A stretch of DNA of 64,000 nucleotides from an uncultured Bacilli bacterium (GCA_910585915.1 CAJUGF010000001.1:4622-68621); one strand, 5' to 3'. Shown: positions 64-52,849, numbered from the stretch's first letter. Notes: a model not told the origin generated them from the letters alone. Translations and numbers: made by a program.

Positions 64-1548
64 ATGGAAAAGAAAAAAGTGTGGTTGTTAGTAAGTATTA
101 TGGGAGTATTTTTAGTAGCAGTGGGAGTGAGTTTTGCTCTTTGGTATATGAGGGCAGAACAAACAAGTACGAATGAAGTAATGAGTGATTGTTTTAAAAT
201 TGAATTTGAAAGTGGTATTGGTATTACTTTGAATCAAGCATATCCGATGATTGATAAAGAGGGGTTAAAAAATGATCCATATACTTTTACTTTGAAGAAT
301 ATATGTAATAGTAGTGCTAGGTATCAAATTAATTTAGAAACCTTGAATGTAAGTGGAAAAGCATTACCAGATGGATATTTAAAAGTTAATCTAGAAGAAG
401 ATGGTGTTTCAGTCATTACAACGAAGTTAGAAGAAAGTATTCAAGTGGATGTAACAATAGAAGGGGCTATGAAAGCCTATAAATTATTAACTGAAGTACT
501 GGGTCCAAACGAAGAAAAAGAATTTAATTTAAGACTATGGATGCATGAAGATGTTGGAGTAAGTGATGATAGTATGAATGCTAGTTTTGCTGGAAAAATT
601 AGTGTGACTACAAGTTATAAGAAAACGGAGCCAACCATAGCAGATGCAATAAAAAGTATGCCTATTGTAACAAGTGGGACTGGATTGTATGAAGTGAATC
701 ATCCAGAAAGTGAGTTTATTGAAGAACTTTCTCAGGAATTATCTGAAAAACAAAAAGCTAATTTAAAGATGACAGAATATCGTTATGCTGGAAGGAATCC
801 CAATAATTATGTTAGTTTTAATAATGAGTTATGGCGCATTATAGGTTTAGTAAATACCCCAGAAGGGCAACGCGTTAAAATTAGATCCACTGGTTCGGCT
901 ATCACAGCAGCGTGGAACACAAATGGATCTACTACAGAGCACGATGCGAATGAATGGGGAAATTCTACTTTGATGACCTATTTCAATCATGGGAATTATT
1001 TTAATAATAGTCTTACAAGTGAAGCTAAAGAAATGATTGATACAATTACATGGAATACAGGAAGCACAGGGGATTATAGTAATATTAATGTTATGTCTTT
1101 TTATAACTTAGAGAGAAGTAATCAAAAGAATTGTAGTACAGGAGATTCCTGTAATGACATTATAGTGAAACCTACTATTTGGAAAGGTAATGTAGCATTA
1201 ATGTATCCAAGTGATTATGGCTATTCTACAAGTGGTAATGATGCAGATCATAGGCTTACTTGTTTAAATACATCTTTAGATAGTGGATGGTTATATAATT
1301 GGAGTTGCATGAACAATTCTTGGATTTTTTATACTGCTTACATATGGACACTTACAGCAGCTGCGAGAACAAGTAGTGCCTCAGGAGTATTTGGCATGGA
1401 TCAAGGGGGACATGTATATGATTCGACTGCTTCAAGAGAAACATGGAGTTATCCAGTTGTTTATCTAAAATTAAATATCGATATTACATCGGGTGATGGG
1501 ACAGTGGGAGCGCCTTATGAGCTAACTTATAGAAATGAAGAATTATAA
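64..1548 (+). CDS. Secreted/surface-anchored protein, mosaic paralog family member (N-domain A + C-domain B)
   Basis: RBS AAGGAAG then ATG at 64. Lys-rich N-terminus then a hydrophobic segment (signal peptide or signal anchor). Residues about 30-200 resemble the N-terminus of the 49767 protein. Residues about 215-500 resemble the C-terminus of the 43215 protein (YRYAG.NPNNYV.FNNELWR.IGLVNTPEGQR.KI). Confidence 0.6.
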   Translation: MEKKKVWLLVSIMGVFLVAVGVSFALWYMRAEQTSTNEVMSDCFKIEFESGIGITLNQAYPMIDKEGLKNDPYTFTLKNICNSSARYQINLETLNVSGKALPDGYLKVNLEEDGVSVITTKLEESIQVDVTIEGAMKAYKLLTEVLGPNEEKEFNLRLWMHEDVGVSDDSMNASFAGKISVTTSYKKTEPTIADAIKSMPIVTSGTGLYEVNHPESEFIEELSQELSEKQKANLKMTEYRYAGRNPNNYVSFNNELWRIIGLVNTPEGQRVKIRSTGSAITAAWNTNGSTTEHDANEWGNSTLMTYFNHGNYFNNSLTSEAKEMIDTITWNTGSTGDYSNINVMSFYNLERSNQKNCSTGDSCNDIIVKPTIWKGNVALMYPSDYGYSTSGNDADHRLTCLNTSLDSGWLYNWSCMNNSWIFYTAYIWTLTAAARTSSASGVFGMDQGGHVYDSTASRETWSYPVVYLKLNIDITSGDGTVGAPYELTYRNEEL

Positions 1549-1617: not shown

Positions 1618-3231
1618 ATGAAATGGGTGGTAATTATGAATTTAAAGACAAGAAAGAGAATATTGGCTTCTATTTTGTCAATTACAGTACCTTTTGGGAT
1701 GAATGATATAGAATATGTTTCTAATGACATAGTGAATTCTAAAGAAAACGGGCAAAATTCAACATCGTCTGATTATCCTTTTTGTGAAAATAACACTTAT
1801 GGTGATTTCAATTTGTATGAAGCAAAGGCGTTAATGAAACAAAATTTGATTCAAGAATTTTTAGATTATTATGAAAATTTATCAATTTCTTATTATAATG
1901 CTAATATTCATTCTTCAAAAGAAGAAATATCTGCTTTTTTTCAAAATGTACAAAATAAACAGCAATGTGATTATGTTTTTGATGGTAAAGAAGAAGAATT
2001 AATTCAAACAATTCAAGCTAATTCTCGTGATGTTGCCAATGCCAATTCAAAGTATGTTTCAATTTTTGAGGGAGAAAACGAGGATCTTTCTAATTTTGTT
2101 TTTCAACGCATTCTTTCAAAAATCATTGCTCATTCCTTTAATAATGTTAATGAAGATCTTTGTCGATTTCAAGATTTAGGAATTGTATTTGGAAATGTAA
2201 ATGGCTCTACCCAGGAGCAAGGATTTAATATTTTTACTTTTATTTACAATCCAGAACAAAATATTTTGGTTTTGGATAAAGAAGCGATGGAAAAAGTTGC
2301 TTTCGCTGAAAATATTACTTATCCAGAGGAATTTGAGCATGTTTTGCTCCATGGATTAAATCGTGCACGAATGTTTTCTTGTTCTATCGATCAATTCTAT
2401 ATTCCTAGTGCCGTTCTTTTAGAAGCGGCTTCGGAAACAGAATTGTATTATTCTGAAAAGGATCAAACTGGCTATTTGAATCATTTTGGTAACTTATTAT
2501 ATTATCGAAAATTAAATCATGAAGCTCTTCTTTTGCTTCTTGGTGTGTTTCAAGAAAATTTTAGTATGGAGGAATATTATCGAGCTATTTGTGATAGTGA
2601 TGTTGCTTCATTTCAATCCTTGTTTGGATTAGAAACGAAAGAGGATGCAGTAGAGTTTTATCATATTTTAGAGTCAATGGATTTTGTTTTTCATGGTAAT
2701 GATTATTATAATCAACATTCTCAAGGATTGACTTTAAATGATACGATAAAGGAAGCGGGAATGGGATATCGTGCTAAAATATTTCAAAAATTTTTAATTT
2801 CGATGTTGCATTATAAAGAAAAGCATGTTGATTTTTCTTTGAATGACCAATTGCTATTCCTTGCTATTGCTAGAAATTTGATTATTCAAGATGTTAACTA
2901 CTATGAAAATGATAGAGCTTATTGTGATTTAGAGTTTGCAAAAATGATTTATGATATGGAAGAACAATATATTTCTTTTTTGAGTCAATATTATGAAAAA
3001 AGTATTGATGCAATTCGCTATTGCGATGGAGAGAATGATTCTTTTATTGAGGATCTTGGATTATTTTATAGAGAACATCGTCAAACATATAAAGTACGAA
3101 AATTGTTTGAACAATATCCTGTTTTAAGTGTTATTTGCTATGAAAGTGAATGTAAGGTAAGAGATTATCGAAGATTTTTAGAAGAAAATGATTTTGCGAT
3201 GAAGCGAACTATTTATCAAGGAGATTTGTGA
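1618..3231 (+). CDS. Hypothetical protein, probable secreted/lipoprotein (signal-peptide-like N-terminus); start may be the ATG at 1636
   Basis: Long ORF with AT-rich codon usage matching neighbours. N-terminus KTRKRILASILSITVPFG is signal-like. No recognisable catalytic motifs. Confidence 0.45.
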   Translation: MKWVVIMNLKTRKRILASILSITVPFGMNDIEYVSNDIVNSKENGQNSTSSDYPFCENNTYGDFNLYEAKALMKQNLIQEFLDYYENLSISYYNANIHSSKEEISAFFQNVQNKQQCDYVFDGKEEELIQTIQANSRDVANANSKYVSIFEGENEDLSNFVFQRILSKIIAHSFNNVNEDLCRFQDLGIVFGNVNGSTQEQGFNIFTFIYNPEQNILVLDKEAMEKVAFAENITYPEEFEHVLLHGLNRARMFSCSIDQFYIPSAVLLEAASETELYYSEKDQTGYLNHFGNLLYYRKLNHEALLLLLGVFQENFSMEEYYRAICDSDVASFQSLFGLETKEDAVEFYHILESMDFVFHGNDYYNQHSQGLTLNDTIKEAGMGYRAKIFQKFLISMLHYKEKHVDFSLNDQLLFLAIARNLIIQDVNYYENDRAYCDLEFAKMIYDMEEQYISFLSQYYEKSIDAIRYCDGENDSFIEDLGLFYREHRQTYKVRKLFEQYPVLSVICYESECKVRDYRRFLEENDFAMKRTIYQGDL

Positions 3232-41379: not shown

Positions 41380-41982
41380 ATGATATTTATGAATACAAAA
41401 AAGCCAATGTCTAGTTTGCAAAAGTGCTTTTATGCAGTAAGTTTTATAGTACTGATTGCAGCTTTTGTTTTTCTTGGTACAAAAAATTATAAAATTAAGG
41501 AATTGTCTGATGCAGAACAATTTTCGCGAGAATATCGGACAGTTTCTTCTGATAATTTGTTTCAGGTATTTGATTCTGCGGAAGCTTTGACATTTTTAGA
41601 AAAAGGAACAGGTATTCTATTTTTGGGATTTCCAGATAATAAGTGGAGTTCTAGTATTGCAGAAATGCTTGATCAAGTGAGTCACGAGTATAATTACCCA
41701 GTAAATTATTTTAATTTTTATGATGAACGTGAGAATAGACATGATAATTATTTGGGGATTTTAACTGAAGTAGATGAGTATTTGAATTTGGATGATAAAG
41801 GTAGACTTAACTTGTATGCTCCAACGATTATTGGTGTAGTAAAAGGGGATGTTATTTATTTTGATGATGAGACAACTTTTATGAATCAAAAAATGGAACC
41901 AAGTGATTATTGGACACCTTCTCAAAAAGAGAAGAAAATGTTGCGTTTACGCTCACTTTTTTTAGAAATGAAAGGAAAGTAG
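41380..41982 (+). CDS. Membrane-anchored hypothetical protein, possible thioredoxin-like fold with degenerate CxxC (WSSS)
   Basis: N-terminal TM. GILFLGFPDNKWSSSIAEMLDQ resembles the thioredoxin active-site region (FWA.WCGPC) with Cys replaced by Ser. Tentative. Confidence 0.35.
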   Translation: MIFMNTKKPMSSLQKCFYAVSFIVLIAAFVFLGTKNYKIKELSDAEQFSREYRTVSSDNLFQVFDSAEALTFLEKGTGILFLGFPDNKWSSSIAEMLDQVSHEYNYPVNYFNFYDERENRHDNYLGILTEVDEYLNLDDKGRLNLYAPTIIGVVKGDVIYFDDETTFMNQKMEPSDYWTPSQKEKKMLRLRSLFLEMKGK

Positions 41983-41985
41983 AAT

Positions 41986-42483
41986 ATGGATGAGAAAGTT
42001 GTAAAGGTTATATCTTGTTCGGTTGCGGTGGCAGTGATGATTTTATTGCTTAGTGGGGATATGATTATATCTCAGTTTATTCGAGTTAATCCTAATCAAG
42101 ATATGATAGTAGAGGAAACTAGTTTTTGTGAGCAAAGATTTTGTTTGCAAGCTTTATCTAATCAAATAAAATATCATGATACTGTTTTTGTGCTTATTGG
42201 TCAAAGCGAAGAAGAATCTTGTAGTCAAATTCTTTCTATATTTGAAGAGACCATTGCAGAATATCCAGCAGTTTATGGGTCTTATTTTGATTTTCAACAG
42301 TTTATTTTTGAAGAGGATGAGTATCAAGCTTTTTTGGCTTTGATTAATGATGAGTCTTTGTTATCACAATCTTTTTCTGTTTTGATTTTTCAAGGTGGTG
42401 AATTTAAGGAATTGATAGATATATCTTCTTTAGAAAGATTGAAAGAACAATTAATTGATAAAATTCAATTGTATTCGAATTAA
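41986..42483 (+). CDS. Membrane-anchored hypothetical protein, weak paralog of the preceding gene (SEEESCS instead of CxxC)
   Basis: N-terminal TM; DTVFVLIGQSEEESCSQILSIFEE aligns loosely with the corresponding segment of the upstream protein. Confidence 0.3.
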   Translation: MDEKVVKVISCSVAVAVMILLLSGDMIISQFIRVNPNQDMIVEETSFCEQRFCLQALSNQIKYHDTVFVLIGQSEEESCSQILSIFEETIAEYPAVYGSYFDFQQFIFEEDEYQAFLALINDESLLSQSFSVLIFQGGEFKELIDISSLERLKEQLIDKIQLYSN

Positions 42484-43214: not shown

Positions 43215-44849
43215 ATGAACTATAAAAATATGTTAAAGAGAGAAACTAAAGTTATTGCTTACGTTGTTATTTGTTTAACTCTCGTAGTAATTGGTGTTAG
43301 TTATGCCATGTTTTTGCAAGTTAATAAGAATACTGATAATCAAGTAGTGGAAACAGGTTCTTTAGTTATTACTTATAAAAATGGCAACGGGGAAATGATT
43401 CAAGATAATGCTTGTTTGGAACCAATGACAGATGAGGATGCTTCTATTATGATAGAATGTAGTTATCAGTTAAGCATTTTAAACAGTGGATCTTTGCCTG
43501 CTAATTATAAATTGAATATTTTTGATAATTTGGAAGGTTTAAGTGGAAATGAAGTTTTTGTTAGCCATGATATTTTACGTGTTGGATTGAAAAAAGGGGT
43601 TGAGACTTTAAATCCTTTTAAGATAGAAACATTGTCTAATTTGCCACATACTGATGAAACAGCGTCTGAAACGGCTCAGAATAATATTCGTTATATATTA
43701 GATACTGGGGTATTAGAGCCTGGTGAAAATATTACTTATAGTGTTCAGATTTGGCTGAATGATGATAAGGCTAGTACAGCACTTTCGAATCAATTTGTTT
43801 CTTTGAAAATTGAAGTTGATAGTGTTGTTGCTGAGAATGTTGATGTTGGCAATGATAATTCTAGTGAAATCAAAGGTTTTTTTGAAGAAAAAGTGGTCAC
43901 TAATGGAGAAGGAGTATACAAAGTAGAACATCCTGATAGTGAATTAACAGAAGCTTTTTCAAATGATTTGTCAGAAGCTCAAAAAAATAATTTAAAGCAA
44001 ATAGAGTATCGATATGCTGGGGCTAATCCAAATAATTATGTAACATTTAACAATGAGTTATGGCGGGTGATTGGCTTAGTAAATACCCCAGAAGGACAAA
44101 GAATTAAAATAATAAGAAATGAAAGTATTGGAGAGTATTCTTGGGATAGTAGTGACAGTAGTACTAATGATGGATATGGAATTAATGAATGGAGTCAAGC
44201 AGACATAATGCATTTATTAAATGATGGTCCATACTACAATCGTACTAGTGGAATTTGTTATAATGCTCAAAATAATGCTACTATAGATTGTGACTTTAGT
44301 AATTCTGGTTTAAGTGATCAAGCAAAGAATATGATCGAAACAATCACTTGGAATACTGGAAGTAATGACGTAGCAACACATACATATGAACATATTAATA
44401 CAACAGAATTTTATAGTTTTGAACGAAGTGGAAATACTGGAAAAGTTTGTAATAGTGGAACTTATTGTAATGATACATTAACAAGAACAACTACATGGAA
44501 AGGTATGATTGGGTTAATGTATTCAAGTGACTATGGATATGCTACGAGTGGTGGGACAACAATAAATAGGATATCTTGTTTAAATTCTGAATTGTATAAT
44601 TGGAATAATAGTGAAGATTGTTATCAAAATAATTGGTTAAATAATTCAAGCATTTCTCAATGGATTATATCTCCTATAGCTGATGCAGATCTTGCTCATA
44701 GTTCTTTTGTTGTAGGAGTTAATAAACGCGTTGGAAATGGTATTGTTGCTGGGGCACGTGGTGTTAAACCAACTTTATTTCTTAAATCTAATATAAAAAT
44801 AGTTGATGGATTAGGAACACAAGAAAATCCTTATCAATTAAAAGCTTAA
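43215..44849 (+). CDS. Secreted/surface protein, mosaic paralog family member (divergent N-domain A + C-domain B)
   Basis: N-terminal signal/anchor. C-terminal about 330 aa homologous to the C-terminal half of the 64..1548 protein (EYRYAGANPNNYVTFNNELWRVIGLVNTPEGQRIKI, ITWNTGS). Confidence 0.6.
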   Translation: MNYKNMLKRETKVIAYVVICLTLVVIGVSYAMFLQVNKNTDNQVVETGSLVITYKNGNGEMIQDNACLEPMTDEDASIMIECSYQLSILNSGSLPANYKLNIFDNLEGLSGNEVFVSHDILRVGLKKGVETLNPFKIETLSNLPHTDETASETAQNNIRYILDTGVLEPGENITYSVQIWLNDDKASTALSNQFVSLKIEVDSVVAENVDVGNDNSSEIKGFFEEKVVTNGEGVYKVEHPDSELTEAFSNDLSEAQKNNLKQIEYRYAGANPNNYVTFNNELWRVIGLVNTPEGQRIKIIRNESIGEYSWDSSDSSTNDGYGINEWSQADIMHLLNDGPYYNRTSGICYNAQNNATIDCDFSNSGLSDQAKNMIETITWNTGSNDVATHTYEHINTTEFYSFERSGNTGKVCNSGTYCNDTLTRTTTWKGMIGLMYSSDYGYATSGGTTINRISCLNSELYNWNNSEDCYQNNWLNNSSISQWIISPIADADLAHSSFVVGVNKRVGNGIVAGARGVKPTLFLKSNIKIVDGLGTQENPYQLKA

Positions 44850-44855
44850 TTTTGG

Positions 44856-44882
44856 AAAAAAGATCAAAATGATCTTTTTTCT
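44856..44882 (+). terminator. Intrinsic terminator
   Basis: AAGATC-aaaat-GATCTT hairpin plus a T6 run. Confidence 0.55.
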
Positions 44883-44964
44883 TTTGTTTTCTAGAAAAAA
44901 TTGTTGATTGGAAGAAAAACTGGTGATATAATTTATGGTAGAAATTGAAGGGAGGGTATAATTT

Positions 44965-45150
44965 ATGACTAAAGTTGTAGTAACTAATAATAATATTGAT
45001 GGAGCTTTAAAGAAATTTAAAGTAAAAGTTGCTAGAAGTGGTGTCCCTTCTGAATTAAAGAAAAGAAAACACTATGAAAAACCAGGCGTTAAGAGAAGAG
45101 AAGCGAAGAAAGAAATGATTCGTAATGCTAGAAAACATAGAAGTTATTAG
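44965..45150 (+). CDS. rpsU: 30S ribosomal protein S21
   Basis: 61 aa, basic, KRREAKKEMIRNARKHRSY C-terminus typical of S21; RBS GAAGGGAGGG. Confidence 0.85.
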   Translation: MTKVVVTNNNIDGALKKFKVKVARSGVPSELKKRKHYEKPGVKRREAKKEMIRNARKHRSY

Positions 45151-45158
45151 GTGATTTT

Positions 45159-45611
45159 ATGTCTTTAACAGAAATTATTTCCAATGATTTTAAAACATGT
45201 ATGAAAGAACAAGATAAATTCTCTCTAGGTGTTTTAAGAATGCTTAAAAGTGCATTACAAATGGAACAAATTAATAAGAAACATGATTTATGTGATGATG
45301 AAGTATTAGCTGTTATTAAAAAACAAGTGAAGGTTCGTAAAGATTCTATTTTAGAGTATCAAAAATATGATCGCAAGAATGAAATTGAAATGTTAGAAAA
45401 GGAAATTAATGTTTTATCAAAATATTTGCCAGAAGAATTGAGTGAAGAAGTTGTTTTGAATGAAATTGATTGTGTATTTTCAGAAATTCAGCCAACTAGT
45501 ATGAAAGATATGGGACGGGTGATGAAGCTTTTAACTGAGCGAATTGGTAGTCAAACAGATATGTCCCACGTTAGTTTTCTTGTTAAAGAACGAATTATGA
45601 AAGGTAGCTAA
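45159..45611 (+). CDS. GatB/YqeY-domain protein
   Basis: Conserved pairing with rpsU in Firmicutes; the N-terminal helical YqeY domain pattern. Confidence 0.7.
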   Translation: MSLTEIISNDFKTCMKEQDKFSLGVLRMLKSALQMEQINKKHDLCDDEVLAVIKKQVKVRKDSILEYQKYDRKNEIEMLEKEINVLSKYLPEELSEEVVLNEIDCVFSEIQPTSMKDMGRVMKLLTERIGSQTDMSHVSFLVKERIMKGS

Positions 45612-45695
45612 TTGCTATTTTTTCTTTTTATTTGAAAAAAATGAAATTTTATGTATAATATTGTTAGTATATTTTATTTAAAGGGGGAGTAATCC

Positions 45696-46265
45696 ATGAA
45701 AAAGAAACAGTTTTTGGCGGTTGCAATCGTTTTTTGTTTAATCGTTTTATCATTTTCTGTTAGGAGTACTTTTGCTAAGTATAAGTCTTCTGTTACTGTA
45801 ACAGATGATACTAGGGTTGCTAGATGGGGTATTAATATGTCAAATGAGATTAATTTGCTTGAGAATTCCTCTTTGGTTGGAGAGACTACTACTATTGCTC
45901 CAGGAAGTTCTGGCATCTATCGTTTTCGTGTTGATGGAACAACTGAAACGAGTCATAAGTTAAAAATAAATGTATCTGGGGAAGATCATGTAGGTCGGAT
46001 TGTGTATTATTTGGATGATCCAAATAAACAGATGGGAATGGATTTTGACACTTTAAAAGTTTTTTTACAGGGTATTGTAACTGATGAAGTTATTGAACCT
46101 AATGGAAAACCTATGTTTGATTTTGATCATACTATTACTTGGGAATGGCCTATGGGGGATGCTGATTCTACTGATTATAGTATTTTTAAAGATAAAGATG
46201 GAAATACTGTTCAACCTTTTGTAACTTTGAATGTTGAGGTTATTGCTGAACAAGTAACTAAGTAG
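45696..46265 (+). CDS. Small secreted protein (possible TasA/camelysin-like beta-sandwich; tentative)
   Basis: RBS AAGGGGGAG. Signal peptide MKKKQFLAVAIVFCLIVLSF followed by STFAKYKSS, reminiscent of the FAxFSD motif of TasA-family N-termini. Followed by a signal peptidase gene. Confidence 0.4.
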   Translation: MKKKQFLAVAIVFCLIVLSFSVRSTFAKYKSSVTVTDDTRVARWGINMSNEINLLENSSLVGETTTIAPGSSGIYRFRVDGTTETSHKLKINVSGEDHVGRIVYYLDDPNKQMGMDFDTLKVFLQGIVTDEVIEPNGKPMFDFDHTITWEWPMGDADSTDYSIFKDKDGNTVQPFVTLNVEVIAEQVTK

Positions 46266-46286
46266 GTTTCTGATGGGAGAATAAAA

Positions 46287-46817
46287 ATGGATTGGTTAGA
46301 GATTAAGGAATTTTTAAAAGATACTTTTAAAGTTGTCTTTTTTATTGTTATTGTGTTATTTTTTATTCAATATGTTTTTTCGGTTACAACGGTTGTAGGG
46401 GATTCTATGAATCCCACCTTACATAATGAAGAATATCTTTTTTTAAATAAATTGAAGTATCGTATTTCTGATATTAAAAGAGGAGATGTTATTTCATTAA
46501 AGTATGAAAATACAAAATATTTGATAAAGCGTGTTATTGGTTTGCCTGGAGATACAGTACTGATTCAAAATAATCACGTTTATATCAATGGAACGATGTA
46601 CGAAGAATCATATTTATCTAGTGATTTGGAATATGATGATTTCTCTTTATCTAGTTTAGGATATGATAAAATACCAGAAGATATGTATTTTGTTTTAGGT
46701 GATAATCGAAGTAATTCTATGGATAGTAGAGAAATTGGCTTAATATCTCGAGATGATGTTATAGGAGAAATAGTATTTCGCTTTTGGCCACTTAATCGAT
46801 TTAAATTCGTTTCTTAG
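46287..46817 (+). CDS. lepB: Signal peptidase I (S26, bacterial P-type)
   Basis: N-terminal TM, catalytic GDSMNPTL (Ser) and KRVIGLPGD (Lys) boxes, and GDNRSNSMDSR box E. Confidence 0.88.
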   Translation: MDWLEIKEFLKDTFKVVFFIVIVLFFIQYVFSVTTVVGDSMNPTLHNEEYLFLNKLKYRISDIKRGDVISLKYENTKYLIKRVIGLPGDTVLIQNNHVYINGTMYEESYLSSDLEYDDFSLSSLGYDKIPEDMYFVLGDNRSNSMDSREIGLISRDDVIGEIVFRFWPLNRFKFVS

Positions 46818-47020
46818 AACTTACATTTTTTTGTAAGTTTTTTACATATTTAGACATATTATATAAACATTTTAATAGTTTATTTTTTCTTTTGGGCATT
46901 TTCTTTCCCTTGTTTATTGCGTTTTTTTCTGTCAAGTGATTTTCTTTAAAAAAATGTAACTTTTTGTTGCAGTTTTTTTTGTTTCAACGTATAATTATTA
47001 TGATAGGAAGGGTAAGATAT

Positions 47021-49252
47021 ATGAATAAACGTAAAGGAACTATTATTGCAATTTTATTGATTCTTTTTTTAGGAACAGGATCATTTGTTTTCGCTAATCC
47101 TAGTGAGAAAGAACTTGATAAAGGAAATAGCAATAATAGAAATACTACCAATAGTAATAGTGAAAAGAAGGAAAATAAAAAGGAAAGTGGTATCACTATA
47201 GATAATGATTCTGAAATTAACGATGATGATCAAGATGATAGTGATAGTATGGGCGTTTTAGCTCCTGTTCTTGAAACAACTACTTATCAGGGAAATCGTA
47301 ATCATTATGGTAGTGGTAATATAACTTCTTCAAATAATGTTGTTGATTCTAATAAACCAGGAAATGATAATACGGTTTCAACTGATCATAATTATGACAA
47401 TGCGTATAAAGCAGTTGATGAAGCTAATGCTTCTATGACAGAAGAAAATTATCAAAAAGCTTTAGAAATTGTCAATCAATTGCCTGATGGCCCAAAGAAA
47501 GATGAATTGTTAGAACAATTGGATGTTATACATAAACTAATTCAAATTTCTTCTATGTTAAATGAATTAAAAGTTATGGTTCAAAGTGCTTCAGGAAAGA
47601 GTGACATCCAAAAAGCTCAAGAGTTTTTGGAGAAGAATGATTTAGAGAAAAAGATTCAATCTCTACCAAATAGTGAAAAAAAGCAAGCATTTATGAATGA
47701 ATTAAATCAAATTTTGAATATTTTAAATGATAACGATGCGCCATCTGTTACAGGTATTCGTAATGGTGAAGTGATTAATCATAATTTGAATGTTAAAGTT
47801 ACAGATAATCTTGAAACAAGTATTCTTTTAAATGATCAAGAGATGTCTTTAGAAGAATTAAATGGTGATTTAGCTGAGGGTGAATATGATCTTGTTGTTA
47901 TTGATCAATCATTTAATGAAACTAATCTTCATTTTATTGTAGATAAAACGGCACCTGTTATTTCTGGTATTTTAAATCAAGCGCTTTATAATGCATCAGA
48001 TATTGTTAAAATTCAAGTAGAGGATGCTCATGGATTTGTTTATCATTTTGAGAGAAATGGTAAAGCAGAGGAATATACTTTAGGGCAGAGTATTTTAGAA
48101 GATGGAGAGTATTCTTTCTATGCTTATGATGAGGCTGGTAATGTTAGTGAACTTTATGGTTTTACAATCGATAGAGTAGCACCAACAGCATCTGTTTCTT
48201 ATAATATTACAGATCGCACTAATCAGGATGTAATCGGAACTCTTATTAATCCTTCTGAGGAAATAACTGTATTAAATAATGGTGGAAGTTTATCTTATAC
48301 TTTTGCAGAAAATGGTGAATTTGTATTTGAGATTTCTGATAAAGCTGGAAATAAAACTGAAATAGTTGCCAATGTTAAAAATATTGATAAAGATGCACCA
48401 CTTGTTAAAGATTTTGGTATTTTGAATTATAGTCGAGTTGGTACTAATCAAAAACTATCAGTTGCTTCTTATAAAGATGTAATTTGGGCTTATACTGTAT
48501 TTGAAGAAAAATTAGGTACAGCTCCAACAATGAAATTTTATGATCAAGAGGTAAATAGCCAATTTAGTGAGGAATATTCTACTGATGGTAAATATGTTTA
48601 TATTGCTTCTTATGAAGTTCCTTTGGATGTAGAAGAAGGAGAAGTGTTGATTGCAGTTTCTAATTATGCAGATGATCTTGGTAATGTTGGAAGTGTGCTT
48701 TCTAATCAAAGTATCATTTCTTCAGAATATGCTTCTGTTTATGTTTTGAATACTCCTGGATTTATATTCCAAAATAAAGGATATTTTAATCAAAAAGAGA
48801 TCCTTATCAAAGATCCTGATTATGATTATATGATGGTACGTAGTATTACTCCACCTATGATGAAAAAGGTAGAGGAAAATCATTTTACTATTCCTGATGG
48901 AGCATCTGTGTTTATGTTTATTGTATATTACAAAGATGGCTCTTCTGTACCATTTACTATGACATATGATGGTTTCTCTCCTCAAATTAATGGTACAGGT
49001 GTACAAGAAAATGATACACTTAATATTACCGATGGTGGAAGTTATCAAGAGGTTAATTTATCTGTTTATGATCAATATTTAGATCACGTTATCGTATCAA
49101 AAACGGTAAATGGTGTAACAACAGAAGATAAATTTGAGTTTACTGATTTATATGCAACCAAGGATTTACATTATGATGAAAGTGGAGATTATAATATTGT
49201 TGCTTATGATCGAGCTGGTAATGAAACAAGTATTCAATTTACAATTCAATGA
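47021..49252 (+). CDS. Large secreted adhesin-like protein with Asn/Ser/Asp-rich linker and three Big_5-like Ig domains (DxAGN motifs)
   Basis: Signal peptide ending FVFA-NPSE; low-complexity N-region. Repeated modules end in YAYDEAGNVSE ... DRVAP, ISDKAGNKTE ... DKDAP and VAYDRAGNETS, the conserved motif of bacterial Ig-like Big_5-type domains. Confidence 0.65.
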   Translation: MNKRKGTIIAILLILFLGTGSFVFANPSEKELDKGNSNNRNTTNSNSEKKENKKESGITIDNDSEINDDDQDDSDSMGVLAPVLETTTYQGNRNHYGSGNITSSNNVVDSNKPGNDNTVSTDHNYDNAYKAVDEANASMTEENYQKALEIVNQLPDGPKKDELLEQLDVIHKLIQISSMLNELKVMVQSASGKSDIQKAQEFLEKNDLEKKIQSLPNSEKKQAFMNELNQILNILNDNDAPSVTGIRNGEVINHNLNVKVTDNLETSILLNDQEMSLEELNGDLAEGEYDLVVIDQSFNETNLHFIVDKTAPVISGILNQALYNASDIVKIQVEDAHGFVYHFERNGKAEEYTLGQSILEDGEYSFYAYDEAGNVSELYGFTIDRVAPTASVSYNITDRTNQDVIGTLINPSEEITVLNNGGSLSYTFAENGEFVFEISDKAGNKTEIVANVKNIDKDAPLVKDFGILNYSRVGTNQKLSVASYKDVIWAYTVFEEKLGTAPTMKFYDQEVNSQFSEEYSTDGKYVYIASYEVPLDVEEGEVLIAVSNYADDLGNVGSVLSNQSIISSEYASVYVLNTPGFIFQNKGYFNQKEILIKDPDYDYMMVRSITPPMMKKVEENHFTIPDGASVFMFIVYYKDGSSVPFTMTYDGFSPQINGTGVQENDTLNITDGGSYQEVNLSVYDQYLDHVIVSKTVNGVTTEDKFEFTDLYATKDLHYDESGDYNIVAYDRAGNETSIQFTIQ

Positions 49253-49263
49253 GGTAATTAACT

Positions 49264-49659
49264 ATGGCTTATATGAAGTTTAAAGAGCTGACAAAATATT
49301 TTGATTTTAAGGAGGAGATAACAAAACTTGATTTGTTACCTCCTTATACAAAAGAGTACGTAAATGACAAGGAACATGTTTTTTTGGCTTATAAAAATAG
49401 TAAAGATTATATTGTTTTTACTGATAAAAAATTGATTTTATTCGATCGTGATCCATTAGCAATGTATTATAAAAAGGTCCATATTGTTCCTTATAAATCT
49501 ATATCTACTAGTGCAATTAATTTTTTGCCTGGTAAAGTAGAACTTTTATTTAGTTTGGATAGTGGTTATCAATTGCATCTTAATTTTGTTTCAATGAATC
49601 ATGAAAAGAAGGAAAATCTAAAACAAATTTATAATGTGATGATGAATTATAATTTGTAA
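49264..49659 (+). CDS. Small hypothetical protein (possible bacterial PH-like domain)
   Basis: 131 aa, no TM. The KKLILFDRD ... VPYKSIS pattern is compatible with bPH-type beta-sandwiches. Tentative. Confidence 0.3.
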   Translation: MAYMKFKELTKYFDFKEEITKLDLLPPYTKEYVNDKEHVFLAYKNSKDYIVFTDKKLILFDRDPLAMYYKKVHIVPYKSISTSAINFLPGKVELLFSLDSGYQLHLNFVSMNHEKKENLKQIYNVMMNYNL

Positions 49660-49686
49660 AGAAGCAAAAATTGCTTCTTTTTTTTA
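49660..49686 (+). terminator. Intrinsic terminator
   Basis: GAAGCAA-aaatt-TTGCTTC hairpin plus a T9 run. Confidence 0.65.
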
Positions 49687-49766
49687 CAGTTTTTTAATTA
49701 TTACTGGATATTTTTGTATCAGTGTGATATATTCATTTTAGGATAGAGATGGATCAAGGTGAGATT

Positions 49767-51389
49767 ATGAATAAGAAGAAGGTATGGTTATTTTCTGGAA
49801 TTATAGGGATATTATTATTATCAATGGGAATTAGTTTTGCATTATGGTTTCAAGTTTTTGAACAACAGGATACCAATGTTGTTCAATCTGCATGTTTTAA
49901 AGTAGAATTTACAGAAGGAAATGGAATTTCTTTAAGTAATGAGTTTCCAGTTTCTGATTCAGAAGGTTTACTTAAGACTCCTTATACTTTTTCTATAAAG
50001 AATATTTGTGATGATAGTGCAAGTTATCAAATTAATTTAGAATCGTTGATTCCTGAAGGAACGAGATTACCAGATCAATATTTAAAAGTTAATTTACAAG
50101 AAAATAATATATCAAGGGTAACAACAAAATTAGACAAGGAAGTTAATGTAGAAATGGAAACCGCAGTAACTATTAGTGGTGCTACTGATGCTTATAAATT
50201 ATATACAGGAATTTTAAATCCAAACGAAACCATAGAATTTAGTTTGAGATTATGGATGGATCATACGGTTACACAGCATGATGAAAATAGTATGAATGCT
50301 AATTTTTCAGCAAAGATTAATGTAATTACTGGATATTATCAGGATAGACGTGGTACTATGATGGCTGTTGTTTATAATCAACCTGTTGCTTATTTTTCAT
50401 ATCGAGAAGATATTACTAAAGTTATTATAGAAGATGTAATGGAACCAAAAGAAACTGAATTATTTTGGGATGTATCTGAGAATCAAGATGGTAGTGTTAT
50501 GAGTTATTTAATACCAAATGATGATAGTACAACTTACACTTTGTATTTGCAATCGGATGGTGGTATTAAGGCTAATCCTAAATCATCCCATTTGTTTTAT
50601 CGTTTTTCTAAGTTAGAGACTATTGAGGGATTGGAGCATTTAGATACTAGTAATGTTACAAGGATGAATGCTATGTTTTATGAGTGCTATAATCTACAAG
50701 AACTTGATTTAAAAACTTTTGATACTAGTAAAGTTATCGATATGTCTTTACTTTTTGCTGATTGTCAAAAGTTAACAAAGCTAGAAGTGGGATATTTAGA
50801 TACTAGTAATGTTACTAGTATGAAATCAATGTTTTATGGTTGCAGAGTTTTAACCAGTTTAGATTTAAGTCATTTTGATACCAGTAAGGTAACTGATATG
50901 CTTGGAATGTTTTCATATTGTTCTAAATTAAAATCTCTTGATTTAAGTCATTTTGATACAAGTAATGTTACTAGTATGGAATCAATGTTTTATTCTTGTG
51001 TCGAGTTAGTATCTTTAACTTTTGGAGATTCCTTTTTCACTAACAATGTTTTGAATATGAGTAAAATGTTTTATAGCTGTTCTAGTATTACTGATTTAAA
51101 CTTATCTGGTTTTGACACAAGTAAAGTTACTACTATGGGGGGAATGTTTGTATATTGTATTTCATTAGAGAAATTAGATTTAAGTTCTTTTAATACACAA
51201 AATGTTTCAAGTTATAATTCATATCATTTAGATTCAAATTATGGAATGTTTTATGGATGTTCTAAATTATCTAATATTATTTATGGAGATAATTTTGTTT
51301 ATAAGGAAGGTGCTCATGTTGATTCTATGTTTGATCGATGCCCTGCTAATCATCCATCACATGAATCATGGAATGGAGTGTCTTTCTAG
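49767..51389 (+). CDS. Surface protein: paralog-family N-domain A fused to BspA-type leucine-rich repeats
   Basis: N-terminus closely parallels the 64..1548 protein (CFK.EF..G.GI.L ... YQINLE.L ... YLKVNL). The C-terminal half has about 8 repeats of the LD(L/T)S.FDTSNVT.M..MFY.C pattern, the BspA/LRR_5 signature. Confidence 0.75.
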   Translation: MNKKKVWLFSGIIGILLLSMGISFALWFQVFEQQDTNVVQSACFKVEFTEGNGISLSNEFPVSDSEGLLKTPYTFSIKNICDDSASYQINLESLIPEGTRLPDQYLKVNLQENNISRVTTKLDKEVNVEMETAVTISGATDAYKLYTGILNPNETIEFSLRLWMDHTVTQHDENSMNANFSAKINVITGYYQDRRGTMMAVVYNQPVAYFSYREDITKVIIEDVMEPKETELFWDVSENQDGSVMSYLIPNDDSTTYTLYLQSDGGIKANPKSSHLFYRFSKLETIEGLEHLDTSNVTRMNAMFYECYNLQELDLKTFDTSKVIDMSLLFADCQKLTKLEVGYLDTSNVTSMKSMFYGCRVLTSLDLSHFDTSKVTDMLGMFSYCSKLKSLDLSHFDTSNVTSMESMFYSCVELVSLTFGDSFFTNNVLNMSKMFYSCSSITDLNLSGFDTSKVTTMGGMFVYCISLEKLDLSSFNTQNVSSYNSYHLDSNYGMFYGCSKLSNIIYGDNFVYKEGAHVDSMFDRCPANHPSHESWNGVSF

Positions 51390-51467
51390 TAAAGAGTAAA
51401 TATATTTTTATATTTGCTTTTTTTTAATGAAATTTCATTTTTTTCATATACTTTAGTGGTGAAGAAT

Positions 51468-51710
51468 ATGCAATTGATTAATCGAGTGCGCAATTTTTTA
51501 GTTGATCAAAATTATTATATTGATATTTATGAAAATAAAGTTCATATTTTTCATTATGTTGATATTATTAAATTACAGGATGAAGAGATTGTGCTACAAA
51601 TGGATGGCTTTCAAATTGTTTTAACAGGAGCAAATTTTCGGGTGGGGCGTTTAGAAAATCGTGAAATTTTAATTTCTGGTATTATAGAAAATTTGAAATT
51701 TGTGAGATGA
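51468..51710 (+). CDS. yqfC: YqfC/YabP-family sporulation protein
   Basis: About 80 aa. QDEEIVLQMDGFQIVLTGANFRVGRLENREILISGIIENLKF matches the YabP/YqfC beta-barrel family; followed by yqfD. Confidence 0.7.
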   Translation: MQLINRVRNFLVDQNYYIDIYENKVHIFHYVDIIKLQDEEIVLQMDGFQIVLTGANFRVGRLENREILISGIIENLKFVR

Positions 51711-52849
51711 AACATTATATTTGGATGGAAGTAAAAACAACGAATGAAAGTCGTTTGTTAGTAAAACTATTTAAAGCTGGCATTAATGTGTATGGTATTA
51801 CTTATGGAAATGGTGTTATTCGGTTTCAAATATGTGTAGAGGATCGAAAGTTATTAAAAAAAATTCCGGGATATGCGTTTCACAAAGTTCGAGATAGTGG
51901 TTTGTTTGCATTACTTGCTTATTTTAAAAAAAGAATTTTAGTATTATTGGGGATTATTTTGTTTGTTCTTTTTCTTTTTTTGGTTTCTCATGTGATGGTA
52001 TCTGTTCAAGTCATTCATTCTAATAAAGAAATTCGAGATTTGGTAACAAAATCTTTAGAGGATTATGGTATTCATCGACTTACATGGAAGAAAAATTTTC
52101 AGGAAATTGAAAATATTAAACAGCAAATTTTAAATGATTATCCTAATCAATTAGAATGGTTGGAAATAGAAGTAAGTGGGATGAAGTATATTGTCAGGAT
52201 TGAAGAACGTATTATTACGAATCCAGATGAAAAGAAGAAGCAATGTCATTTGATTGCAACAAAGTCTGCTATTGTTAAAAAAATGTTGTTTTCAAGTGGG
52301 GAAGCTAAGGTTTTAGTGAATGACTTTGTAAAAGATGGAGACATTTTAATTAGTGGAGAGCTAATTCATAATGAAGAGGTGAAAGGATTTGTTTGTGCAA
52401 CGGGGGATGTTTATGGGGAAGTTTGGTATACAGTGAAGGTAAGTTTACCACTTATTTATGAGGAAACAGAAGAAACTGGTAAAGTACGATGGAACTTTGG
52501 ATGGTCTAAAGGAGATCTTGATCATATTGTTTTTCGACCACGAGTTCAAAGTTATATAACCGAGAAAAAGCCATTGTTTACTCTTTTTGGAATTCAGTTT
52601 TCCTTTTTGAAGCAAAAGGAGGTTACCATTACACAGAAGACTTATACTGAAGAAGAAGCCATTAATAAAGCCCTTTTACTTGTTGATGAGAAAATGAAAC
52701 AGCAAATTGATCAAAATGATGAAATAACTACAAAAAAAGTTTTGAAAAAACAGCTGAATGATAGTACAATGGATATAGAAGTTTTTGTGTCTGTTGTTGA
52801 AAAAATTAGTAGACAGGAAGAATTTCAAGAGATCAAAGAAGAGGGTTAA
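51707..52849 (+). CDS. yqfD: Sporulation protein YqfD-like (stage IV sporulation family)
   Basis: About 380 aa with a single central TM; conserved pairing with yqfC upstream of ybeY/era, as in Bacillus. Confidence 0.65.
   Translation: MKHYIWMEVKTTNESRLLVKLFKAGINVYGITYGNGVIRFQICVEDRKLLKKIPGYAFHKVRDSGLFALLAYFKKRILVLLGIILFVLFLFLVSHVMVSVQVIHSNKEIRDLVTKSLEDYGIHRLTWKKNFQEIENIKQQILNDYPNQLEWLEIEVSGMKYIVRIEERIITNPDEKKKQCHLIATKSAIVKKMLFSSGEAKVLVNDFVKDGDILISGELIHNEEVKGFVCATGDVYGEVWYTVKVSLPLIYEETEETGKVRWNFGWSKGDLDHIVFRPRVQSYITEKKPLFTLFGIQFSFLKQKEVTITQKTYTEEEAINKALLLVDEKMKQQIDQNDEITTKKVLKKQLNDSTMDIEVFVSVVEKISRQEEFQEIKEEG

What the first reader, a model, noticed from the sequence alone, without database searches (positions are those of the whole stretch)
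43215..51389. Mosaic secreted-protein family with domain shuffling (N-domain A, C-domain B, BspA LRRs) clustered with a signal peptidase I and a Big_5 adhesin
Three large proteins (64..1548, 43215..44849 and 49767..51389) share modules in a patchwork. Protein 1 is A+B, protein 2 is a divergent A plus B, and protein 3 is A plus about 8 BspA-type leucine-rich repeats (LD.S.FDTSNVT.M..MFY.C). Between proteins 2 and 3 lie a small secreted protein, a P-type signal peptidase I (lepB-like), a 744-aa Big_5/Ig-like adhesin and a small PH-like protein. All four secreted proteins have a conserved short motif right after the hydrophobic core of the signal sequence (VSFALW, VSYAMF, ISFALW, STFAKY). This is loosely reminiscent of the FA.FSD motif of SipW-cognate TasA/camelysin substrates. 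It suggests a dedicated signal-peptidase/substrate system or a conserved anchor. Module swapping plus LRRs point to a variable host- or surface-interaction repertoire.
Basis: partly seen in the sequence, partly recalled or inferred. Interest (0 to 1): 0.7.

Follow-up and report, generated by a model that had tools for sequence, protein, structure and literature searches.

The report
TasA-like secreted adhesin family, SipW-type signal
Three large modular surface proteins and one small secreted protein of an uncultured gut bacterium share a signal-peptide motif in the same register as the cleavage site of the biofilm-fibre protein TasA, so they are best read as unannotated TasA-type proteins carrying sugar- or ligand-binding modules, not as clients of the ordinary signal peptidase next door.

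Summary
P1 (64-1548), P2 (43215-44849) and P3 (49767-51389) are a real mosaic: domain A is 54% identical between P1 and P3 and 24% between P1 and P2, and domain B is 47.5% identical between P1 and P2. P3 carries eight 26-residue repeats. The motif [ST]-[FY]-A-x-[WFY] occurs in only these three proteins and the small protein, out of 63 window ORFs.

Several labels need correcting:
- The repeats are PARCEL/DUF285, not BspA LRRs.
- Big_5 is not supported.
- Domain A is a divergent TasA/camelysin jelly-roll. Some A+B relatives pass Pfam PF12389.

The motif has the same register as the TasA site T-W-A|A-F. Relatives of the small protein lie within 500 nt of a SipW-type peptidase in 72 of 77 genomes. 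The motif is found in 138 of 304 ORFs inside those operons and 12 of 378 in the flanks. A/B-family genes are never next to any S26 peptidase (79 loci).

The window's bacterial-type peptidase belongs to a conserved cassette (small, peptidase, Ig-like protein, bPH). That cassette looks like a reduced form of a nine-gene cluster with two SipW genes. Whether this genome encodes SipW was not determined.

Verdict: a new variant of the SipW/TasA kind, of moderate interest.

The parts
64..1548 (+). P1, 494 aa. Signal peptide with SFALW (130-144); domain A, a TasA/camelysin-like jelly-roll (about 64-648); domain B, an enlarged C-type-lectin-like domain (about 676-1545).
43215..44849 (+). P2, 544 aa. 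Signal peptide with SYAMF (43299-43313); divergent domain A' (about 43215-43859); domain B (about 43887-44846).
   Evidence: domA HMM 146.7 bits and domB HMM 453.5 bits. A' matches the PF12389-positive protein L108:2239-2781 at E 4e-4.
44854..44882 (+). Terminator-like hairpin after P2.
   Evidence: This is a consensus scan only; 2 sites were found against 1.7 expected.
45632..45659 (+). Best sigma-70-like site in the region (TTGAAA-16-TATAAT, 11 of 12), 37 nt upstream of the small gene.
   Evidence: Consensus scan; the overall count is not above chance.
45696..46265 (+). Small secreted protein, 189 aa, signal ...SVRSTFA|KYKSS (TFAKY at 45768-45782). It belongs to an unannotated family that is almost always encoded beside SipW-type peptidases.
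   Evidence: 342 cluster representatives at E<=1e-3. Invariant A27 and Y29. 72 of 77 loci have a SipW-type gene within 500 nt. No Pfam or NCBIfam match. Model pLDDT 83.6, generic jelly-roll hits only.
46287..46817 (+). Signal peptidase I, bacterial P-type, 176 aa, 21 nt after the small gene. The catalytic motifs GDSMNPT, KRVIGLPGD and GDNRSNSMDSR are present.
   Evidence: TIGR02227 166 bits against TIGR02228 33.6 bits. PF10502 163.5 bits. Sequence read. It is the only S26 gene in the window.
47021..49252 (+). 743-aa secreted protein with Ig-like repeats and signal GSFVFA|NP. It is the conserved downstream partner of the P-type peptidase in relatives.
   Evidence: Sub-threshold Big_3_2 only. 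No PDB sequence relative. It follows the P-type peptidase in L010, L016, L019, L023, L034 and L074.
49264..49659 (+). Bacterial PH-domain protein (bPH_1), 131 aa, with no signal peptide. It is a conserved member of the cassette or cluster.
   Evidence: PF08000 48 bits. Present in L010, L016, L019, L023, L034 and L040.
49658..49680 (+). Terminator-like hairpin after bPH. It would close a four-gene unit, 45696-49659.
   Evidence: consensus scan.
49767..51389 (+). P3, 540 aa. Signal peptide with SFALW (49833-49847); domain A (about 49767-50351); eight 26-residue PARCEL/DUF285 leucine-rich repeats (about 50622-51266).
   Evidence: TIGR02167 217.5 bits and PF03382 157.7 bits. Weak matches to generic LRR structures.

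Best explanation
P1, P2, P3 and the small protein are members of a large, unannotated branch of the TasA/camelysin (SipW-dependent) class of secreted proteins in uncultured low-GC gut Bacilli.

The motif G-x-[ST]-[FY]-A|x-[WFY] spans positions -3 to +2 of a TasA-type signal-peptide cleavage site. The peptide would be cut after the Ala, by a SipW-type (ER/archaeal-type) signal peptidase that is probably encoded elsewhere in this genome. The aromatic residue at +2 would then begin the mature N-terminal segment, which in TasA is the donor strand.

Domain A is the TasA-like jelly-roll. It is fused to exchangeable binding modules: an enlarged C-type-lectin-like domain (B) or PARCEL leucine-rich repeats. 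These would present ligand-binding heads on, or alongside, TasA-like assemblies.

The P-type peptidase, the Ig-like protein and the bPH protein form a conserved cassette together with an orphan small-family gene. This cassette looks like a reduced or split form of a nine-gene cluster seen in relatives: bPH, SipW, small1, giant protein, SipW, small2, a protein of about 600 aa, P-type peptidase, Ig-like protein.

Shown here: the mosaic, the specificity of the motif, the genomic linkage of the small family to SipW, the PF12389-positive relatives of domain A, and the fold of domain B. Inferred: cleavage at the motif, which peptidase does the cutting, any fibre formation, and ligand binding.
For: 1. 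Register. TasA reads T25-W26-A27|A28-F29. My recalled TasA sequence scored 513.8 bits on the TasA equivalog model, and the mature protein starts at residue 28 (PMC9674648). The A family has S(91%)-Y/F-A(91%)-x-W(96%) and the small family T(94%)-Y/F-A(100%)-K-Y(100%) in the same positions.

2. Linkage to SipW. In 72 of 77 species-level genome loci a small-family gene lies within 500 nt of a SipW-type peptidase. Eight of these peptidases were checked and all exceed the TIGR02228 cut-off.

3. Motif enrichment. The motif occurs in 138 of 304 ORFs inside the SipW operons and 12 of 378 in their flanks. Most of those 12 are operon members or A-family genes.

5. Link between the families. Iterating from L108 retrieves P1 to P3 (99-219 bits) and the window's small protein at E 2e-18.

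7. SipW elsewhere. The related genomes with the same cassette (L011, L012, L019) also carry separate double-SipW operons (L070, L072, L055).
Against: - None of the four window proteins hits TIGR04088, PF12389 or the TasA model directly, even at a permissive E-value. The positive control does hit.
- hhalign of domain A or the small family against TasA is not significant. Domain A against the small family gives 45% probability with the signal peptide included and 5% without it.
- No SipW-type gene lies in the 64-kb window or in the roughly 10 kb beyond either end.
- A-family genes are not physically linked to SipW.
- The only S26 gene at the locus is P-type, 21 nt from the small gene.
- Cleavage, fibre formation and ligand binding are all untested.
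Confidence: 0.6

Rival explanations
1. The adjacent P-type signal peptidase I is a dedicated paralogue that processes the motif-bearing proteins (small, P1 to P3), in the way SipW serves TasA but using a bacterial-type enzyme.
For: The small gene and the peptidase are 21 nt apart. The same adjacency, at 22-43 nt, occurs in L010, L011, L012 and L019, which have different flanking genes. The P-type peptidase also sits at the end of the double-SipW cluster in L016, L023, L034, L054 and L074, so it is a conserved neighbour of this system. Archaeal TasA-like pilins appear to be processed by the generic peptidase (PMC9245690). No SipW was found in about 84 kb of this genome.
Against: In 72 of 77 loci the small family pairs with SipW-type peptidases, and the full clusters keep two SipW genes in addition to the P-type one. 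None of 79 A/B-family loci (783 kb) has any S26 gene nearby. The constant partner of the P-type gene is the Ig-like protein, whose signal (TFVFA|N) lacks the motif. The peptidase looks like an ordinary SipS/LepB-type enzyme. Genomes with the same cassette still have SipW operons.
Confidence: 0.15
2. The N-terminal hydrophobic segment is an uncleaved signal anchor. The motif would be an interfacial aromatic belt that keeps the proteins tethered to the membrane.
For: AF2 models a continuous helix over residues 2-31 of P1 and 2-25 of the small protein, running through the motif. None of these proteins shows an LPXTG or other cell-wall anchor in Pfam or NCBIfam, so another means of retention would be needed.
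Against: Small residues at -3 (S/T) and -1 (A, 91-100% conserved) are the classical peptidase I cleavage rule (established knowledge). The register equals TasA's proven cleavage site. The tight linkage of the motif to peptidase genes argues for cleavage. AF2 routinely models signal peptides as helices.
Confidence: 0.12
3. The motif is only an ordinary Sec/peptidase I cleavage site, conserved by common descent of paralogues, with no special peptidase or assembly role. The proteins would be independent monomeric adhesins.
For: S-x-A fits the generic -3/-1 rule. A-family genes are scattered among housekeeping genes with no accessory genes nearby. TIGR04088 does not recognise them.
Against: The aromatic residues at -2 and +2 are 96-100% conserved across proteins that are only about 27-42% identical overall. 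A generic cleavage site does not need them. The motif is shared by families whose mature parts are barely alignable. It is strongly enriched in SipW operons. Other secreted or anchored proteins in the window lack it.
Confidence: 0.1

Closest known systems
tapA-sipW-tasA (Bacillus subtilis) and sipW-tasA / calY (B. cereus): TasA/camelysin family, Pfam PF12389, signal class TIGR04088
   Same: The signal peptide ends in [ST]-aromatic-A|x-aromatic. An N-terminal jelly-roll follows it. The small-protein family is encoded directly beside SipW-type peptidases. Several paralogous substrates occur per operon.
   Different: The window proteins fail the PF12389 and TIGR04088 models, and only some relatives pass. 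The operon in relatives has two SipW genes plus proteins of 900-1500 aa and about 600 aa that have no TapA counterpart. The window itself has only a P-type peptidase. The A-domain proteins carry large C-terminal lectin-like or LRR modules that TasA lacks.
BsaA family of SipW-dependent biofilm matrix proteins (Clostridium perfringens; TIGR04090)
   Same: Firmicute proteins of a sipW-linked operon. One small-family member, L060:12361-12822, gives a sub-threshold TIGR04090 hit (E 7.7e-5).
   Different: The score is below the cut-off (22.5 against 60), and the window proteins do not hit at all. Nothing here tests isopeptide-type or other polymer chemistry.
Archaeal bundling pili AbpA/AbpB (Pyrobaculum calidifontis), TasA-like donor-strand filaments
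   Same: A divergent TasA-like jelly-roll detectable only by sensitive methods. Foldseek lists 7ueg among the matches to P1. No dedicated SipW lies next to the genes, and the generic peptidase has been proposed instead. An accessory protein with distal domains has been proposed to act as an adhesin (PMC9245690).
   Different: Those are archaeal. Here the adhesin-like modules are fused directly to the TasA-like domain, and many paralogues are scattered through the genome.
N-terminal domain of Thomasclavelia ramosa IgA peptidase (PDB 9qa6), an enlarged C-type-lectin-like domain
   Different: Identity is only 15-18%, and a profile search of PDB sequences finds nothing. In IgAse the domain precedes a metallopeptidase and is dispensable for IgA cleavage, with unknown function. 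Here it is C-terminal to a TasA-like domain. The zinc ligands were not checked.
PARCEL / DUF285 repeat surface proteins (Listeria and Mycoplasma lipoproteins; TIGR02167, PF03382)
   Same: P3 has eight 26-residue repeats that score 217.5 and 157.7 bits.
   Different: P3 has a TasA-like N-domain with the SipW-type motif rather than a lipoprotein signal.
FimH-type two-domain adhesins of chaperone-usher pili (functional analogy only)
   Same: A fibre-subunit-like domain joined to a lectin-like binding domain.
   Different: There is no homology, the domain order is reversed, the secretion and assembly machinery is different, and incorporation into a fibre is purely hypothetical here.

Membership tests
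SipW-dependent-type signal peptide (TIGR04088) | Score of at least 19 bits on the TIGR04088 HMM | tested here: not met
   No hit for P1 to P3, the small protein or their N-terminal fragments at E up to 10. No hit for SipW-operon relatives either. The positive control, TasA, scores 38 bits.
SipW-dependent-type signal peptide (TIGR04088) | Cleavage-site register [ST]-aromatic-A|x-aromatic after the hydrophobic core, as in TasA T-W-A|A-F | tested here: met
   Column frequencies in the A and small-family alignments. The TasA sequence was validated, and its mature start at residue 28 comes from PMC9674648.
SipW-dependent-type signal peptide (TIGR04088) | Gene encoded next to a SipW-type (TIGR02228 / NF046067) signal peptidase | tested here: inconclusive
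   Met for relatives of the small protein, 72 of 77 loci. Not met in the window, where the only S26 gene is P-type. Not met for A/B-family loci, 0 of 79.
SipW-dependent-type signal peptide (TIGR04088) | Actual processing by SipW | not testable with these tools
   This needs biochemistry or genetics.
TasA/camelysin family (Pfam PF12389 Peptidase_M73) | PF12389 score at or above the gathering score of 22.5 | tested here: not met
   The window's A domains and small protein give no hit, even at E up to 10. The homologues L130 (34.5), L108 (30.3) and L160 (22.7) pass, and L137, L152 and P0090 are sub-threshold. The link is therefore transitive.
TasA/camelysin family (Pfam PF12389 Peptidase_M73) | Jelly-roll fold superposable on TasA | tested here: inconclusive
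TasA/camelysin family (Pfam PF12389 Peptidase_M73) | Polymerisation by N-terminal donor-strand exchange | not testable with these tools
   No multimer prediction or experiment was available.
Signal peptidase I, bacterial P-type (TIGR02227 / PF10502) | HMM scores above cut-off, and the Ser/Lys catalytic boxes present | tested here: met
   166 bits (cut-off 47) and 163.5 bits (cut-off 22.9). GDSMNPT, KRVIGLPGD and GDNRSNSMDSR were read; assigning them to the catalytic boxes rests on established knowledge.
Signal peptidase I, ER/archaeal SipW type (TIGR02228) | TIGR02228 score of at least 51.85 bits | tested here: not met
   The window peptidase scores 33.6 bits over residues 15-85 only. A SipW HMM built from relatives gives 25 bits.
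PARCEL / DUF285 repeat proteins | TIGR02167 and PF03382 above cut-off; 26-residue repeat period | tested here: met
BspA-type LRR (Pfam LRR_5) | A Pfam LRR_5 hit | tested here: not met
   Not among the Pfam hits of P3 at E up to 0.01. DUF285 takes the region.
Big_5 bacterial Ig-like domain | A Pfam Big_5 hit on the 743-aa protein | tested here: not met
   Only Big_3_2 at 22.3 bits, below its cut-off of 23.3.
IgAse-NTD-like enlarged C-type-lectin-like domain | Fold match to 9qa6 and to canonical C-type lectin domains | tested here: met
IgAse-NTD-like enlarged C-type-lectin-like domain | Detectable sequence homology and the structural zinc site (D78/H90/C126) | tested here: not met
   A profile of the family finds no PDB relative at the sequence level. 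This tests only the sequence-homology half of the feature; the zinc ligands were not examined.
Bacterial PH domain bPH_1 (PF08000) | Pfam score above 27.7 | tested here: met
   48 bits.

The most novel reading that the evidence does not exclude
Uncultured gut Bacilli may build a SipW-dependent, TasA-like donor-strand fibre from the small-family subunits, using a nine-gene cluster with three signal peptidases. The many scattered proteins that join domain A to a lectin-like or LRR module would be exchangeable adhesin subunits that plug into or cap that fibre. This would be a Gram-positive, sortase-independent counterpart of FimH-type two-domain adhesins. In the window's lineage the cluster has been split, and an orphan subunit now sits beside, and may be processed by, a bacterial-type peptidase.
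Probability: 0.25. Interest if true: 0.75.

Novelty: new variant of a known kind. Interest (0 to 1): 0.5.

Why it matters
TasA-type fibres are the model protein scaffold of Bacillus biofilms, and they are known mostly from cultured Bacillus and Clostridium and a few archaea.

This work shows two large families with no Pfam or NCBIfam annotation that carry the TasA-type cleavage motif. One has more than 3983 database hits. The other has 342 cluster representatives. In uncultured gut Bacilli the TasA-like domain is fused to lectin-like or leucine-rich binding modules.

If these fusions join or decorate fibres, that would give a concrete molecular route for adhesion and aggregation in a poorly known part of the gut microbiota. 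It would also extend the SipW substrate class well beyond current curated models.

The work gives a structural label (IgAse-NTD-like C-type-lectin-like domain) to a widespread domain that had none. It also documents a conserved cluster with two SipW-type and one P-type signal peptidase, a natural test case for peptidase-substrate specificity.

Tried and rejected
- **Direct Pfam and NCBIfam scans** of all eight proteins, and of N-terminal fragments at E up to 10, gave nothing for domains A and B or for the small protein.
- **Word-indexed homologue search** with the small protein found only the protein itself. The exhaustive search was needed.
- **hhalign** of domain A or the small family against TasA was not significant. 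Domain A against the small family was not significant once the signal peptide was removed.
- **Profile search of PDB sequences** with the A+B alignment gave only a spurious kinase hit. The 743-aa protein found nothing.
- **First genome scan** with the 47-sequence alignment failed because no stretch was conserved enough. It was repeated with 12 sequences.
- **Locating a SipW gene in this genome.** There is none in the window or in the contig ends. One look-up failed because of the start-codon choice. The last homologue search, using a relative's SipW, returned 1475 near-equidistant hits that cannot be assigned to this genome.
- **ORF 1618-3231 as a conserved partner of A+B genes.** Rejected: it has no homologue near A+B genes in L005, L007 or L008.
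- **Recent recombination between paralogues.** Rejected: DNA identity is 67-75% with no near-identical tract.
- **Physical linkage of the A/B family to any S26 peptidase.** Rejected: 0 of 79 loci.

Full report
**Source and context.** The window has 29.5% G+C. It matches contig CATDNY010000001.1 of the metagenome-assembled genome GCA_949518705.1. Relatives of its proteins come from uncultured gut 'Bacilli', 'Tenericutes' or 'Erysipelotrichaceae' assemblies, for example Candidatus Ventrenecus. The genes of the finding are inserted in a housekeeping backbone: tsf, frr, rpsU, yqeY, then yabP, yqfD, ybeY, era and recO.

**Checking the observation.**

All the ORFs are present. P1 (64-1548) and P2 (43215-44849) align over their full length (3e-83). 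P1 and P3 (49767-51389) align only over residues 1-207, at 51% identity. P2 and P3 align only in the N-domain, at 26%. By domain, A is 54% identical between P1 and P3 and 24% between P1 and P2, and B is 47.5% identical between P1 and P2. P1 therefore shares its head with P3 and its tail with P2. That is a true mosaic.

The mosaic is old. DNA identity is 67-75%, with no near-identical tract. The same architectures recur in other genomes:
- A with B;
- A with DUF285 repeats;
- A with other C-terminal domains;
- other N-domains with B;
- tandem arrays of paralogues.

A pattern of 'hydrophobic stretch followed by [ST][FYWLH][AS]x[FYW]' picks out only these four proteins among 63 window ORFs. Penicillin-binding proteins, FtsQ-like proteins and other anchored proteins lack it.

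Three labels need correcting:
- The P3 repeats, eight units of 26 residues, are PARCEL/DUF285 (217.5 and 157.7 bits). They are not BspA LRR_5.
- The 743-aa protein has only a sub-threshold Big_3_2 hit.
- Its signal peptide, GSFVFA|NP, does not carry the motif.

**What the modules are.**

An AlphaFold model of P1, built on 47 homologues, has a mean pLDDT of 85.

The decisive link is by sequence, through relatives. A stand-alone homologue next to an A+B gene, L108:2239-2781, scores 30.3 bits on Pfam PF12389 (TasA/camelysin, gathering score 22.5). L130 scores 34.5 and the A+B protein L160 scores 22.7. Three more relatives are just below threshold. A domain A profile built without the signal peptide matches the mature part of L108 at 30.4 bits, E 4.5e-8. 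P2's own A' matches L108 at E 4e-4. The window's own A domains do not reach PF12389. They are a divergent branch of the family, not curated members.

**The small protein and its peptidases.**

The word-indexed search found nothing for the small protein. The exhaustive search found 342 cluster representatives. Their N-terminus is strikingly conserved...SVSGT[YF]AKY[TI]S....D.ARVAKWG. None of them has a Pfam or NCBIfam family.

A scan of one genome per species returned 77 loci. In 72 of them a small-family gene lies within 500 nt of a signal peptidase of the ER/archaeal SipW type. Eight of those peptidases were checked, and all exceed the TIGR02228 cut-off and hit the SipW model.

The usual operon is SipW1, small1, a protein of 900-1500 aa, SipW2, small2 (…VVTYSKY…), and a protein of 530-850 aa (…T[YN]SK[YF]…). 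The motif occurs in 138 of 304 ORFs inside these operons and 12 of 378 in the flanks. Most of those 12 are operon members that my operon-boundary classification placed among the flanks, or A-family genes.

As a negative control, 79 metagenome loci (783 kb) carrying A/B-family genes contain no S26 peptidase of either type. Three looked-up loci contain none either.

**Register of the motif.** The positions line up as follows.

| Family | -3 | -2 | -1 | +1 | +2 |
|---|---|---|---|---|---|
| A family | S 91% | Y/F | A 91% | variable | W 96% |
| Small family | T 94% | Y/F/L | A 100% | K 91% | Y 100% |
| TasA | T25 | W26 | A27 | A28 | F29 |

My recalled TasA sequence was validated at 513.8 bits. Residues 28-38 of TasA are the N-terminal donor strand of the mature protein (PMC9674648). 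The motif therefore covers positions -3 to +2 of a TasA-type cleavage site. The curated signal model TIGR04088 does not recognise these proteins, although it does recognise TasA. They are an uncurated variant of that class.

**The peptidase in the window.**

It is an ordinary-looking bacterial-type enzyme, scoring 166 bits on TIGR02227 against 33.6 on TIGR02228, with its catalytic boxes intact. It is the only S26 gene in the window.

The five loci without an adjacent SipW are one short contig and four loci (L010, L011, L012, L019) with exactly the window's arrangement: small gene, P-type peptidase 22-43 nt downstream, Ig-like protein, bPH protein. Their flanking genes differ.

In L016, L023, L034, L054 and L074 the same pair, P-type peptidase and Ig-like protein, sits at the end of the full double-SipW operon. 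In three of these loci (L016, L023, L034) the bPH gene sits at the start. The window cassette therefore looks like a reduced or split version of that nine-gene cluster.

The genomes of L011, L012 and L019 also contain a separate complete double-SipW operon (L070, L072, L055). A SipW elsewhere in this genome is therefore likely, but it has not been shown. None lies within about 10 kb of either window end, and the last homologue search could not be tied to this genome.

A promoter-like site at 45632-45659 and hairpins at 44854-44882 and 49658-49680 would bracket a four-gene unit. These are consensus matches only.

**Most likely mechanism.**

*Shown.* The four window proteins share a TasA-register cleavage motif. 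Their wider families include PF12389-positive members. The small family is genomically wedded to SipW-type peptidases.

*Inferred.* The precursors are exported by Sec and cut after the motif Ala, most probably by a SipW-type enzyme encoded elsewhere. The P-type neighbour is an alternative, as has been proposed for archaeal TasA-like pilins. The freed N-terminal segment and jelly-roll may then mediate TasA-like self-association or docking. The C-terminal lectin-like or leucine-rich modules would bind host or microbial ligands.

I put 0.6 on this overall reading and considerably less on the fibre step. The rivals are:
- a dedicated P-type peptidase for the motif-bearing proteins (0.15);
- an uncleaved signal anchor (0.12);
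- a generic cleavage site with no special meaning (0.10).

**Novelty and verdict.**

I found no paper describing these families in three full-text searches. The closest systems are tapA-sipW-tasA, sipW-bsaA and the archaeal AbpA/AbpB pili.

However, it is a new variant of a known kind rather than a new principle, and the proposed 'dedicated lepB' is the least supported part. Interest is 0.5.

Noticed in passing
L016, L023, L034, L054, L074 (for example L034:8742-19646): A conserved cluster of about nine genes: bPH, SipW1, small1, a protein of about 950-1020 aa in these loci (up to about 1500 aa in the separate operons L055/L070/L072), SipW2, small2, a protein of 530-850 aa, P-type signal peptidase, Ig-like protein. 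The bPH gene is seen at the start in L016, L023 and L034. That puts three signal peptidases of two types in one secretion-related cluster.
   Followed up: partly
window 47021-47125; L010:11384, L019:3674, L034:17505, L016:17698: Orthologues of the 743-aa Ig-like protein keep a near-identical signal-peptide end, G-T-(G)-[ST]-F-V-F-A|[NGS]. They always follow the P-type peptidase, which suggests a pairing between this protein and that peptidase.
   Followed up: partly
window 49264-49659 and relatives: A cytoplasmic-looking bacterial PH-domain protein (bPH_1) travels with the cassette or cluster. It lies upstream of SipW1 in the full clusters L016, L023 and L034, and downstream of the Ig-like protein in the reduced cassettes. 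Its role is unknown.
   Followed up: no
window 1618-3231: A 537-aa ORF directly downstream of P1 has no Pfam or NCBIfam match. It has no homologue beside A+B genes in three other genomes.
   Followed up: partly
window 51414-52849: YabP- and YqfD-type sporulation genes (the YabP Pfam hit is faint), taken from precomputed Pfam hits on the identical Logan contig L087. They suggest this uncultured low-GC bacterium may form spores.
   Followed up: no
L001:854-1321 (about 3.8 kb upstream of the window start): A 155-aa protein with a prepilin-type N-terminal methylation domain (PF07963). It points to a type IV pilin or competence pseudopilin system in the same genome.
   Followed up: no
L087 start / window about 51390: An independent Logan assembly of the same organism (L087) begins just downstream of P3. 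A contig break falls there, possibly because of the repeats or paralogues.
   Followed up: no
L007:5925-11548; L005:10001-14574: In other genomes the A-family genes form tandem arrays: three in a row in L007, followed two genes downstream by a sortase gene, and two in L005. The C-terminal modules differ between neighbours.
   Followed up: partly
window 41380-42483: Two adjacent small N-terminally anchored proteins of 200 and 165 aa, of unknown function, lie between tsf and frr, just upstream of the region of interest. They lack the motif.
   Followed up: no
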